A stretch of 64,000 bases of DNA, from the NCBI RefSeq assembly GCF_009914755.1, contig NC_060927.1, one strand, 5' to 3'. Of this stretch, positions 33,656-35,310 are shown piece after piece. The position numbers were made by a program, and so were the translations under genes. This DNA is from the human T2T-CHM13v2.0 reference genome, Homo sapiens. A model generated the notes under the pieces. That model ran no database searches. It was not told the origin of the DNA and saw nothing but the letters and a program-made list of their open reading frames with translations. The number at the start of each line of letters is the position of its first letter. Positions within the stretch are counted from its first letter, which is position 1.

Positions 33656-33944
33656 CTCCCTTCCACTAAGGGGGCTTCACCAGATTCTCCTGTTTCAAGG
33701 AGAAATAGAGTTTGGAAACCTCTCATTTTATAAACGAGGACACTGAGGCACAAAGCAGGGTGGTTGGTGCCTTGCCTAAAGTCATACAGATTTCATGTAA
33801 CAAATTGTGCTGGTTAGGTAGGGGAGGATGCAGAGCTCACAGCACAGGTGAATACCTCCATCGCAAAGGCTGAACCAAATGCCCCGTTAAATCAGGAGAC
33901 CTGCCTCTTTCAGCTTTGTTTTCTGAAGAAATCCCTTCCCAGGG
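33656..33944 (+). repeat. Inverted repeat, left arm (289 bp)
   Basis: Reverse complement of 35022-35310 with 7 mismatches (hand alignment). Confidence 0.97.
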
Positions 33945-34011
33945 GTTGAAGCCCTCAGGCTGTGTCCCGAGGCCTGGTGTGGCCTTCAGTCCATCTCCAG
34001 AAGACAGCATA

Positions 34012-34315
34012 GGCCAGGCGCGGTGTTTCACGCCTGTAAGCCCAACACTTTGGGAGGCTGAGGAGGATCACCTGAGATCAGGAGTTCGAGACCAGCCTGG
34101 CCAACATGGTGAATCCCCGTCTGTGCTAAAAATACAAAAATTAGCTGGGCGTGTTGGCGGGTGCCTGTAATCCCAGCTATTTGGGAGGCTGAGGCAGGAG
34201 AATCGCTTGAACTCGGGAAGCGTGGGTTACAGTGAGCTAAGATCACACCACTGCACTCCAGCCTGGGCGACAAGAGCAAAACTCCATCTCAAAAAAAAAA
34301 GAAGAAGAAGAAGAA
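34012..34315 (+). mobile_element. Alu (AluSq/Sx-like) with (GAA)n tail, inside the IR spacer
   Basis: Full Alu; TSD-like agaag(a/t)cagc. Confidence 0.97.
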
Positions 34316-34517
34316 GTCAGCCTGGTCACTCTTTGCCCATTGTGCACTGTCAGCTATGAGCGGAAGTCTGCACCTAGAAAGCTCCCAGGAAAAGAATGCT
34401 CTTCCCTCTTTCTGAAAGATTTCAGGTAGTTCTGGTATCAAATAATAGCAATGAGAAAGGCAGGTGTGGACTCTTTTGTTACTGATATTTTCTGTTACTG
34501 TCTGATTCTTAGTCACA

Positions 34518-34822
34518 TTTTGCTTTTATTTTTATTTTTTTGAGAAGGAGTCTCGCTCTATTGCCCAGGCTGGAGTGCAGTGGTGTTATCTTGGCTCACG
34601 GCAACCTCCACCTCCCGGGTTCAAGTGATTCTCCTGCCTCAGCCTCTTGAGTAGCTGGGACTACAGGCACCTGCCATCACATCCAGCTGATTTTTGTATT
34701 TTTAGTAGAGACGGGGTTTCACCATGTTGGCCAGGCTGGTCTCGAACTTCTGACCTCAAATGATCTGCCCATCTTGGCCTCCCAGAGTGCTGGGATTACA
34801 GGCATAAGCCACCGCGTCCGGC
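34518..34822 (-). mobile_element. Alu (AluSx/Sz-like), inside the IR spacer
   Basis: Antisense Alu consensus. Confidence 0.97.
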
Positions 34823-35021
34823 TCTTACTTGTACTTTGGAAACATTGGTAGTGGGATCCAAGTGTGATCTTTAAAATAGTTAACAATCAGGTAAACCCCC
34901 AGGACACCGGCGTGGATGCTGGCAGTATGCTGCACCAGCGCATGCCCACTGAACATTACACCTGCTGGGCCCTAGAGGACAAGGTTGTGGTTCTCCCTGA
35001 GTGCCGCATGCTGGGGAAGAA

Positions 35022-35310
35022 CCCTGGGAAGGGATTTCTTCAGAAAACAAAGCTGAGAGAGGCAGATCTCTTGATTTAACGGGGCATTTGGTTCAGCCTT
35101 TGCGATGGAGGTATTCATCTGTGCTGTGAGCTCTGCATCCTCCCATACCTAGCCAGCACAATTTGTTACATGAAATCTGTATGACTTTAGGCAAGGCACC
35201 AACTACCCTGCTTTGTGCCTCAGTGTCCTCGTTTATAAAATGAGAGGTTTCCAAACTCTATTTCTCCTTGAAACAGGAGAATCTGGTGAAGCCCCCTTAG
35301 TGGAAGGGAG
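35022..35310 (-). repeat. Inverted repeat, right arm (289 bp)
   Basis: Reverse complement of 33656-33944; contains a MIR fragment (~35180-35245). Confidence 0.97.

What the first reader, a model, noticed from the sequence alone, without database searches (positions are those of the whole stretch)
33656..35310. Nested ~1.65 kb inverted repeat: 289-bp near-identical arms enclosing an inverted Alu pair
Seen: 33656-33944 is the reverse complement of 35022-35310. By hand alignment there are only 7 mismatches (left-arm positions 33762, 33814, 33821, 33848, 33895, 33900, 33909; 97.6%), and the outer 106 bp are identical. The arms consist of unique sequence plus ancient MIR/MER-type DNA, so shared repeat-family ancestry cannot explain this identity. 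The 1077-bp spacer holds Alu(+) 34012-34315 and Alu(-) 34518-34822, so the locus can fold as outer stem, asymmetric bulge, ~300-bp Alu stem and ~200-nt loop. Established: closely spaced high-identity IRs mediate recurrent NAHR inversions and arm-to-arm gene conversion; transcribed long stems are ADAR/Dicer/MDA5 substrates. Inference: a small flip-flop inversion module and/or a long hairpin-RNA locus inside an apparently regulatory landscape.
Basis: partly seen in the sequence, partly recalled or inferred. Interest (0 to 1): 0.8.

Follow-up and report, generated by a model that had tools for sequence, protein, structure and literature searches.

The report
Small inverted duplication around Alu pair
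A 289-base stretch of human chromosome 3 was copied backwards about a kilobase away, on the far side of two older Alu elements, leaving a real but apparently inert nested hairpin-shaped repeat inside an intron of a non-coding RNA gene.

Summary
The arms occur nowhere else in the genome. The flanks tested are single-copy. It is the only inverted pair above 87% among the 25 longest in the window.

The spacer holds two ordinary, unrelated S-type-like Alus in opposite orientation. They are 10.7% and 11.7% from a window consensus, against about 1.2% per arm. So the Alus predate the arms' common ancestor, dated about 10-25 Myr ago with a wide interval.

Best reading: a neutral inverted duplication of hominoid age, made by a fold-back or template-switch repair error. 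Pairing of the inverted Alus probably helped. It now sits in intron 1 of LINC02069.

It could mediate NAHR inversion: validated human inversions share its geometry. However, the locus is absent from a 612-region inversion catalogue and from three dsRNA/editing supplement sets. Toggling, gene conversion and hairpin-RNA function are untested. Ape and pangenome alignments would decide. Low-to-moderate interest.

The parts
33656..33944 (.). Left arm of the inverted duplication (289 nt)
   Evidence: reverse complement of 35022-35310 with 7 mismatches. The only other genome match is a 75-nt, 77% hit on another chromosome.
35022..35310 (.). Right arm of the inverted duplication (289 nt)
   Evidence: 98% identity, E 2.8e-136 in the whole-assembly search.
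33945..35021 (.). 1,077-bp spacer: 67 nt unique, Alu(+), about 202 nt unique, Alu(-), 199 nt unique
   Evidence: The 199-nt part is single-copy in the genome. There is no inverted similarity between the two inner flanks (shuffle p 0.37).
34012..34315 (+). Alu, + orientation, with A-rich/(GAA)n tail and a 9-of-10 flanking direct repeat (AGAAGACAGC / AGAAGTCAGC)
   Evidence: It is 10.7% from the majority consensus of 32 window Alus (non-CpG 8.2%).
34518..34822 (-). Alu, - orientation, with T-rich tail; its target-site duplication is ambiguous
   Evidence: It is 11.7% from the consensus (non-CpG 7.8%). It is 83.9% identical to the other spacer Alu, rank 335 of 496 window Alu pairs, so this is an ordinary unrelated pair.
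33718..33776 (.). Ancient interspersed-repeat piece inside the arm (MIR-core-like by recollection), mirrored in the right arm at about 35190-35248
   Evidence: one 77% hit on contig C7; 4 weak in-window hits, 72-92% over 26-60 nt.
33634..33643 (.). 10-nt motif AGTGGAAGGG in the left flank. It is an inverted copy of arm bases 33658-33667, and therefore a direct copy of the right-arm end at 35299-35308. Meaning unknown.
   Evidence: shuffle p about 0.004 for that comparison, 9 comparisons made.
33631..33650 (.). Imperfect ~20-nt direct repeat of 35311-35331, the first bases right of the right arm. Possible junction scar, or chance in G-rich sequence.
   Evidence: 17 matches in 21 columns with 2 gaps, shuffle p about 0.03 before correction for 9 comparisons.
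31291..38800 (-). Intron 1 of LINC02069 (NR_110043.1), which contains the whole structure
   Evidence: Hub gene table given with the finding (exons 38801-38976 and 31141-31290). Not tested by any search.

Best explanation
This is a small, one-off inverted duplication of otherwise single-copy DNA, and it most likely does nothing today. A 289-bp segment was copied in reverse orientation 1,077 bp away, on the opposite side of an inverted pair of Alu elements that were already there.

The most likely mechanism (inferred) is a repair or replication error of the fold-back / template-switch kind. A broken or stalled 3' end in single-stranded DNA was brought next to the other side of the Alu pair by Alu-Alu intrastrand pairing. 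It primed there, copied 289 nt of its own strand backwards, and was then rejoined to the other end. The result extends the Alu 'palindrome' outwards.

The two arms have since drifted apart by 7 substitutions. That dates their common ancestor to roughly the hominoid/great-ape period.

The structure is carried passively in intron 1 of the lncRNA gene LINC02069. It has latent properties: a substrate for NAHR inversion of the spacer, a fold-back-prone site in single-stranded DNA, and a ~290-bp plus ~260-bp nested duplex in the unspliced RNA. No record shows any of these being used.
For: Shown:
- The arms are real, gap-free, 97.6% identical and a two-copy sequence in the 3.1-Gb assembly.
- The outer flanks and the 199-nt right inner flank are single-copy. 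The 67-nt left inner flank was not searched.
- Homology ends sharply at all four boundaries.
- The spacer Alus are 10.7% and 11.7% diverged from the majority consensus of 32 window Alus (non-CpG 8.2% and 7.8%), against about 1.2% per arm. So they are several-fold older than the arms' coalescence.
- The two Alus are unrelated copies (83.9% identical; window median 82.4%). One has a 9/10 target-site duplication.
- Arm divergence of 2.46% (Jukes-Cantor) gives 10-25 Myr at 1.2-0.5e-9 per site per year. The Poisson interval is 4-50 Myr.
- Only about 2% of random 1,077-bp intervals in this Alu-rich window enclose an inverted pair of full-length Alus (1,209 of 58,846 outside the locus). Bracketing of the Alu pair is therefore unlikely to be accidental, although this is a post-hoc test on one case.

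From the literature:
- Human inverted duplications form by fold-back, with unduplicated spacers of 766-70,466 bp. In 3 of 21 junctions, inverted Alu or LINE pairs served as the pairing site (PMC3907307, passages read).
- In single-stranded DNA, Alu inverted repeats 12 bp to 30 kb apart and up to 25% diverged pair and fold back efficiently in yeast (PMC10164571, abstract read).

Neutrality:
- No Rfam family reaches its threshold in the arms.
- The locus is absent from the inversion and dsRNA lists searched.
Against: - No outgroup or second haplotype could be examined. The order of events (Alus first, duplication second) rests only on divergence. It would be mimicked by an old inverted repeat whose arms are homogenised by gene conversion.
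- Which arm is the copy is unknown.
- The junctions show no clean microhomology. By construction, any inner-junction microhomology is now hidden inside the arms.
- The arms do not abut the Alus: the gaps are 67 and 199 nt. So the Alu stem can only have brought the ends near each other, not templated the priming site.
- The Alu divergence was measured against a mixed-subfamily window consensus, not curated subfamily consensuses, which inflates it somewhat.
- 'Neutral' is an absence-of-evidence statement.
Confidence: 0.55

Rival explanations
1. Older inverted repeat kept nearly identical by arm-to-arm gene conversion, with or without recurrent NAHR inversion of the spacer.
For: - The arms are much less diverged than the Alus between them. 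This is what conversion of an old repeat would also give.
- The longest perfect run is 106 nt, and all 7 mismatches fall in the central 148 nt.
- Validated polymorphic human inversions have the same geometry: HsInv0098 (1,077 bp between 297-bp IRs), HsInv0045 (940 bp / 256-257 bp), HsInv0031 (644 bp / 285 and 249 bp) and HsInv0147 (1,550 bp / 140 bp). These come from Table S1 of PMC13629690.
Against: - There is no chr3 row with positions beginning 1845-1848 in that 612-region catalogue, which merges 1,528 inversion calls from five studies of 195 individuals plus InvFEST predictions. The hg38 position of the locus, about 184.77 Mb, rests on recalled gene coordinates.
- Only 6 of 319 (1.9%) inverted duplicate pairs not previously predicted as inversions were polymorphic in 54 genomes, and those had 1-50-kb arms.
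- Several same-sized candidates in the first part of the table are not polymorphic (HsInv0021, HsInv0049, HsInv0062).
- The mismatch clustering is not significant: P = 0.31 for a perfect run of at least 106, 0.08 for such a run at an end, and 0.07 for a span of 148 or less.
- 2.4% divergence is high compared with the >99% identity of actively converting sex-chromosome palindromes (abstract of PMC8981503, seen in the search listing).
Confidence: 0.15
2. Scar of a small evolutionary inversion made by staggered breaks. One breakpoint was cut with a 289-nt stagger. Fill-in left the staggered segment at both ends of the inverted ~1.1-kb piece, in opposite orientation.
For: - The architecture (unique inverted duplicates exactly bounding a segment, sharp ends, no loss of sequence) is what this model predicts.
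- The model itself is recalled from Drosophila inversion work (Ranz et al. 2007) and was not read here.
Against: - Nothing in one haplotype separates it from fold-back copying.
- It offers no reason for the bracketing of the Alu pair.
- A 289-nt stagger is long.
Confidence: 0.12
3. Functional long-hairpin RNA locus. The intronic transcript folds into a ~290-bp near-perfect duplex plus an Alu duplex, which is edited by ADAR and/or diced into small RNAs with a regulatory or immune-related role.
For: - RNAfold of the LINC02069-sense strand gives -1163 kcal/mol, with 283 of 289 arm bases paired in register and 254 Alu-Alu pairs.
- Both arms are in one annotated intron (hub table).
- Structures of this class are uncommon. 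Only 197 inverted duplicates longer than 300 bp and above 96% identity were found in human RefSeq pre-RNAs. Of the 20 that were expressed, 7 are heavily edited (PMC7006430, passages read).
Against: - The same paper finds only 20 of the 197 (10%) expressed above FPKM 0.01, and argues they are tolerated or selected against rather than used.
- The locus is not in its supplements, nor in those held for PMC12695637 and PMC11838218.
- No Rfam miRNA or other family reaches threshold in the arms.
- An intronic duplex is nuclear and short-lived.
- The four papers that mention LINC02069 do so once each, and three were seen only as search listings.
Confidence: 0.05
4. A DNA transposon or foldback-type element with 289-bp terminal inverted repeats, inserted with a target-site duplication.
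For: - Terminal inverted arms.
- An imperfect ~20-nt direct repeat lies just outside them: 33631-33650 versus 35311-35331, 17 of 21 columns, p about 0.03.
Against: - The arms have no other copy in the genome.
- The left copy of the direct repeat is 5 nt away from the arm, and the repeat is far more diverged than the arms.
- p = 0.03 does not survive nine comparisons.
- As far as I recall, no DNA transposon activity is known in the human lineage at the age the arms imply.
Confidence: 0.02
5. Assembly artefact (a chimeric fold-back read incorporated in the assembly).
For: None found. It is considered only because inverted duplicates can arise from library chimeras.
Against: - The arms differ at 7 sites.
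- They are separated by 1,077 bp of ordinary sequence containing two different Alus.
- An artefactual fold-back would be identical and contiguous.
Confidence: 0.01

Closest known systems
Small IR-flanked human inversions of the InvFEST/HsInv series (e.g. HsInv0098, HsInv0045, HsInv0031, HsInv0147)
   Same: The geometry is the same: inverted repeats of 140-300 bp around a 0.6-1.6-kb segment. HsInv0098 even has a 1,077-bp inverted segment, a coincidence of size at a different chr3 locus.
   Different: Their repeats are SINE (Alu) pairs, and both orientations have been observed. Here the repeats are unique DNA at higher identity (97.6%). No inversion call exists in the catalogue searched.
Fold-back inverted duplications (Hermetz et al. 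2014, PMC3907307); fold-back of Alu inverted repeats in single-stranded DNA (Ait Saada et al. 2023, PMC10164571)
   Same: An inverted copy is separated from its source by an unduplicated spacer. The 1,077 bp here lies inside the 766-70,466-bp range. Inverted Alus were the pairing site in some cases.
   Different: Those events copy megabases, produce dicentrics and are linked to terminal deletions. Here only 289 bp were copied and the chromosome was resealed interstitially. The Alus lie inside the loop rather than at the junction.
Short-range template switches / templated inverted insertions at breaks (PMC7954356 and PMC11724301, abstracts seen in search listings)
   Same: A polymerase copies the opposite strand nearby and returns, creating or perfecting a hairpin-forming repeat.
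   Different: The reported events are tens of bases (about 5-34 bp in the yeast study) over short distances. This one is 289 bp over about 1.1 kb.
Large X/Y-chromosome palindromes with arm-to-arm gene conversion (Warburton 2004, not held; PMC8327919 and PMC8981503, abstracts in listing)
   Same: Non-transposon inverted duplicates with a unique spacer.
   Different: Those have arms of kilobases to megabases, more than 99% identity, and testis genes in the arms. Here the arms are 289 bp at 97.6%, with no gene in them.
Long, nearly perfect intragenic inverted duplicates as dsRNA sources (Barak et al. 2020, PMC7006430); inverted-Alu editing substrates
   Same: A near-perfect duplex plus an inverted Alu pair within one primary transcript.
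   Different: At 289 nt it falls just under that study's 300-bp cut-off and is not in its tables. Expression and editing were not measured.
Genome-wide 'inverted duplicates' (Chen et al. 2017, PMC5398296)
   Same: It fits the generic class. That study counted 4,315,271 in human using arms of 10-10,000 nt.
   Different: That survey capped spacers at 1,000 nt, so this 1,077-nt spacer would be excluded. Most of its members are very short, and this one sits at the long, high-identity, non-repeat end.

Membership tests
IR-mediated (NAHR) polymorphic inversion | High-identity inverted repeats at both ends of the segment | tested here: met
   289 nt, 97.6% identity, longest perfect run 106 nt.
IR-mediated (NAHR) polymorphic inversion | Both orientations observed among individuals or species | tested here: inconclusive
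   No haplotypes could be compared. Catalogue look-up only: no chr3 row at 184.5-184.9 Mb (hg38) among 612 candidate regions. A repeat pair this small enters that list only if some caller reported an inversion.
Segmental duplication (UCSC definition as quoted in PMC13629690) | At least 90% identity and not made entirely of transposable elements | tested here: met
   97.6% identity and mostly single-copy DNA. The definition was read.
Segmental duplication (UCSC definition) | Length of at least 1 kb (recalled threshold) | tested here: not met
   The arms are 289 bp.
Fold-back inverted duplication | Inverted copy separated from its source by an unduplicated spacer of about 0.8-70 kb | tested here: met
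   The spacer is 1,077 bp.
Fold-back inverted duplication | Inverted (micro)homology at the spacer/duplication junction | tested here: inconclusive
   Any such bases are now indistinguishable from the innermost arm bases. The flanks just beyond the arms share nothing.
Fold-back inverted duplication | Dicentric intermediate with terminal deletion, translocation or ring | tested here: not met
   The event is interstitial, with unique flanks continuing on both sides.
Sex-chromosome-type palindrome with gene conversion | Arms of several kb or more at over 99% identity, carrying genes | tested here: not met
   289 bp, 97.6%, no annotated exon in the arms (hub table).
Hairpin-RNA / endo-siRNA locus | Both arms in one transcript that folds into a long duplex | tested here: met
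   Both arms lie in LINC02069 intron 1 (hub table). RNAfold gives 283 of 289 pairs in register on the sense strand. Actual transcription was not shown.
Hairpin-RNA / endo-siRNA locus | Dicer-dependent 21-23-nt small RNAs, or A-to-I editing, mapping to the arms | not testable with these tools
   No expression data were available. The locus is not in the held supplements of three dsRNA papers.
DNA transposon / MITE with terminal inverted repeats | Multiple dispersed copies of the element | tested here: not met
   Only the two arms match in the assembly.
DNA transposon / MITE with terminal inverted repeats | Target-site duplication directly abutting the repeats | tested here: inconclusive
   There is an imperfect 20-nt direct repeat, offset 5 nt on the left, with p about 0.03 before correction.

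The most novel reading that the evidence does not exclude
The outer arms were created because of the inner Alu pair. An inverted Alu hairpin in single-stranded DNA seeded outward growth of a palindrome by fold-back synthesis, followed by recapture of the second end. If so, nested repeats of this form (unique, high-identity arms bracketing an older inverted Alu pair) would be a recognisable germline signature of Alu-hairpin-induced breakage and repair in primates. This locus would be a self-reinforcing fragile or toggling site whose stem has grown from about 260 to about 550 bp.
Probability: 0.25. Interest if true: 0.5.

Novelty: new member of a known kind. Interest (0 to 1): 0.25.

Why it matters
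Taken alone, this is one more small inverted duplicate in an intron, and nothing indicates function.

Its value is as a clean natural specimen. The arms are unique DNA, so orientation and arm-specific variants can be typed unambiguously, unlike Alu- or L1-flanked inversions. The geometry matches validated small human inversions, yet it is uncatalogued. The age contrast between arms and enclosed Alus allows a sharp test with ape assemblies of how such repeats arise: fold-back copying across an Alu hairpin, a staggered-break inversion, or an old repeat kept alike by conversion.

If the Alu-seeded fold-back reading held up and recurred elsewhere, it would link inverted-Alu instability, known from yeast and patient rearrangements, to fixed structural change in primate genomes.

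Tried and rejected
- **Other copies or haplotypes of the arm:** an exact 35-mer scan of the prokaryote genome collection, looking for contaminating human or primate contigs, found 0 matches.
- **Which arm is the source:**
  - Genome searches with the 500-nt outer flanks and the 199-nt inner flank found only themselves, plus one 40-nt hit.
  - A sensitive in-window BLAST found repeat-family hits only in the middle of the arm, none crossing a boundary. So the source arm could not be named.
- **Junction analysis:** an 8-mer table and nine local alignments with shuffles gave two oddities, AGTGGAAGGG and a 20-nt imperfect direct repeat. Neither survives multiple testing cleanly, and I could not fit them into a specific template-switch path.
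- **An older, wider palindrome:** no inverted similarity was found between the inner flanks or beyond the arms.
- **The two Alus as diverged duplicates of one another:** rejected. Their 83.9% identity is ordinary for this window.
- **Gene-conversion signal from mismatch clustering:** not significant.
- **Rfam:** 20 matches at E <= 1 in 32000-37000. All are below gathering scores and almost all lie inside Alus. The only one touching an arm is ZFAT-AS1_3 at E 0.79.
- **Literature:**
  - LINC02069 appears in 4 papers, once each (listing only).
  - The main text of Giner-Delgado 2019 has no mention of chr3, 3q27, VPS8 or MAGEF1.
  - Warburton 2004 is not held (one search was a malformed term).
  - The supplements of PMC11838218 held here are a single 11-kb text file, so that negative result is weak.
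  - bioRxiv supplements of the Porubsky inversion preprint are closed and were not tried. Its calls are included in the merged catalogue I did search.
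Full report
**1. The observation**

- The repeat finder reports arms 33656-33944 and 35022-35310: 289 nt, 98% complementary, 1,077 nt apart. Nested inside is a second inverted pair, 34066-34268 / 34563-34765 (203 nt, 87%).
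- A direct comparison gives 7 mismatches in 289 positions, at 33762, 33814, 33821, 33848, 33895, 33900 and 33909. Six are transitions, one is a transversion, and none lies in a CpG. There are no indels.
- A gapped local alignment of the wider flanks stops at exactly these ends.
- Perfect runs are 106, 51, 6, 26, 46, 4, 8 and 35 nt. Each arm is 47% G+C and keeps the same 3 CpGs.

**2. More than chance, and not a repeat family**

- Searching the window's own 3.1-Gb assembly with the left arm returns three places: itself, the right arm (98%, E 2.8e-136), and a 75-nt, 77% match on another chromosome covering arm positions 66-140. Repeating the search with only that part gives the same three places.
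- A sensitive BLAST inside the window finds four weak relatives (72-92% over 26-60 nt) of 33718-33776 and nothing for the rest of the arm. So each arm is single-copy DNA carrying a short piece of an ancient interspersed repeat. By recollection it looks like the MIR core. I could not confirm a 'MER' part.
- The 500 nt outside each arm and the 199 nt inside the right arm are single-copy.
- The window has 78 inverted pairs of at least 100 nt within 10 kb. Among the 25 longest listed, every other pair is Alu-sized at 78-87%. This is the only one at 98%.

**3. The spacer**

- BLAST with the + Alu finds 32 Alu copies of at least 250 nt in the window.
- The two in the spacer are 34012-34292 (+, tail to about 34315) and 34540-34822 (-, tail from about 34518). 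Both give sub-threshold 7SL/SRP matches in Rfam.
- They are 83.9% identical to each other, which ranks 335 of 496 window Alu pairs (median 82.4%). They are independent insertions, not halves of a duplication.
- The + Alu has a 9-of-10 flanking direct repeat. The other's target-site duplication is ambiguous.
- Against the majority consensus of the 32 copies they differ by 10.7% and 11.7% (non-CpG 8.2% and 7.8%), typical for the window. By recollection this fits S-type Alus.
- Each arm is about 1.2% from the arms' common ancestor. The Alus are therefore several times older than the coalescence of the arms.
- The arm divergence (2.46% corrected) corresponds to 10-25 Myr at 1.2-0.5e-9 per site per year. 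The Poisson interval is 4-50 Myr.

**4. What follows**

There are two possibilities.
- (a) The 289-bp copy was made after both Alus were in place, landing on the far side of the Alu pair.
- (b) The repeat is older than it looks, because its arms exchange sequence.

I favour (a).
- Nothing in the mismatch pattern demands conversion. A perfect run of at least 106 nt has P = 0.31, such a run at an end 0.08, and all seven mismatches within 148 nt 0.07.
- 2.4% divergence is large for an actively converting palindrome.
- The bracketing of an inverted Alu pair is improbable by chance. It occurs in 1,209 of 58,846 random 1,077-bp intervals outside the locus, about 2%. This test is post hoc and rests on one case.

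A mechanism that explains the bracketing is known.
- After a break or fork stall, single-stranded DNA folds back where inverted sequences pair, and the 3' end primes on its own strand.
- In patients, such fold-back duplications have unduplicated spacers of 766-70,466 bp. In 3 of 21 sequenced junctions the pairing site was an inverted Alu or LINE pair (PMC3907307, passages read).
- In yeast, Alu inverted repeats pair in single-stranded DNA whether 12 bp or 30 kb apart and tolerate up to 25% divergence (PMC10164571, abstract).
- Here the synthesis would have been short (289 nt) and the end recaptured, giving an interstitial, balanced-looking product.

This step is inference. The junctions show no diagnostic microhomology, and the arms start 67 and 199 nt away from the Alus.

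**5. Rivals on origin**

- A staggered-break inversion would give the same present-day structure. It differs only in predicting an inverted spacer in outgroups.
- A long-TIR transposon is nearly excluded by the copy number. Its only support is an imperfect 20-nt direct repeat just outside the arms (33631-33650 versus 35311-35331, 17 of 21 columns, p about 0.03 among nine comparisons).
- An assembly artefact is excluded in practice by the seven differences and the ordinary, Alu-bearing spacer.

One unexplained detail remains. AGTGGAAGGG at 33634-33643, 14 nt left of the arm, is an inverted copy of arm bases 33658-33667 (shuffle p about 0.004).

**6. Does it flip?**

The structure is competent. 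Part 1 of Table S1 of Moreira-Pinhal et al. 2026 (PMC13629690) lists validated polymorphic inversions:
- HsInv0098: 1,077 bp between 297-bp repeats.
- HsInv0045: 940 bp between 256/257-bp repeats.
- HsInv0031: 644 bp between 285/249-bp repeats.
- HsInv0147: 1,550 bp between 140-bp repeats.

The same part lists same-sized candidates that were not polymorphic: HsInv0021, HsInv0049 and HsInv0062.

That table covers 612 candidate regions. They were built from 58 validated inversions, 1,528 calls of five long-read, Strand-seq and optical-mapping studies, InvFEST predictions, and 319 inverted duplicate pairs of 1-50 kb. It has no chr3 entry whose coordinates begin 1845-1848.

I place the locus at about chr3:184.77 Mb in hg38. 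This comes from recalled MAGEF1 and VPS8 positions, which agree with the window's offsets. So no study merged there reported an inversion here.

Overall, 155 of the 612 regions were polymorphic, but only 6 of the 319 un-predicted duplicate pairs were. Common toggling is therefore unlikely. Rare or ancient toggling is untested.

**7. Does it act as RNA?**

- Both arms and both Alus lie in intron 1 of LINC02069, on the minus strand (hub table).
- RNAfold of the sense strand (1,655 nt) gives -1163 kcal/mol, with 283 of 289 arm bases paired in register and 254 Alu-Alu pairs. The plus strand gives -1188 kcal/mol, with 287 and 265.
- Such structures are uncommon. Barak et al. 2020 count 197 inverted duplicates longer than 300 bp and above 96% identity in human RefSeq pre-RNAs. 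Only 20 are expressed above FPKM 0.01, and 7 of those are heavily edited. The authors argue for tolerance or purifying selection rather than use (PMC7006430, passages).
- This repeat is 11 nt short of their cut-off and is not in their supplements.
- It is also not in the supplements held for PMC12695637, where the only matches to the digit strings are on chr1, or for PMC11838218, where only one small file is held.
- LINC02069 appears once each in four papers, with nothing on function (listing only).
- No Rfam family reaches its threshold in the arms.

If the intron is transcribed, it will very probably be edited like any long duplex. That is a general expectation, not a finding.

**8. Verdict**

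This is a genuine, uncatalogued, single-locus inverted duplication of hominoid age. It most likely arose as a neutral by-product of fold-back or template-switch repair across an inverted Alu pair. It is a new member of a known kind.

The functional inferences are possible but unsupported by the records I could reach. The decisive data lie outside these tools: ape and monkey orthologues, human pangenome orientation, and stranded RNA and small-RNA reads.

Noticed in passing
window 36034-36198: A ~165-bp element with 53-nt terminal inverted repeats (75% complementary) beginning CAGTGGTTCTCAACC. It gives sub-threshold Rfam hits to one miRNA-precursor model (MIR7533) on both strands. By recollection it looks like an old hAT-type MITE (MER-like), about 0.7 kb right of the finding.
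   Followed up: partly
window 32878-32938: An imperfect (TG)n / TGTGTGCGTG microsatellite, about 26 dinucleotide copies.
   Followed up: no
window 33300-33371: Two tandem 36-nt units at 83% identity, in the G+C-rich stretch just left of the finding. G+C reaches 0.60 at 33400-33699.
   Followed up: no
window 9216-10464, 12506-13399, 47971-48841, 53396-54278: Five further adjacent inverted pairs of full-length Alus with gaps of 187-346 nt. None is bracketed by a high-identity unique repeat. The window is very Alu-dense: 32 copies of at least 250 nt in 64 kb.
   Followed up: partly
window 35507-35546 (query positions 197-236 of 35311-35810): A 40-nt stretch right of the finding has a 93% match on another chromosome (contig C2), E 1.8e-5. 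It was not examined.
   Followed up: no
window 33762-33909 versus 35057-35204: At the 7 arm differences the left arm carries G or C at 5 sites, and the right arm (read in the same sense) at 2. Without an outgroup this cannot be read as GC-biased conversion.
   Followed up: no
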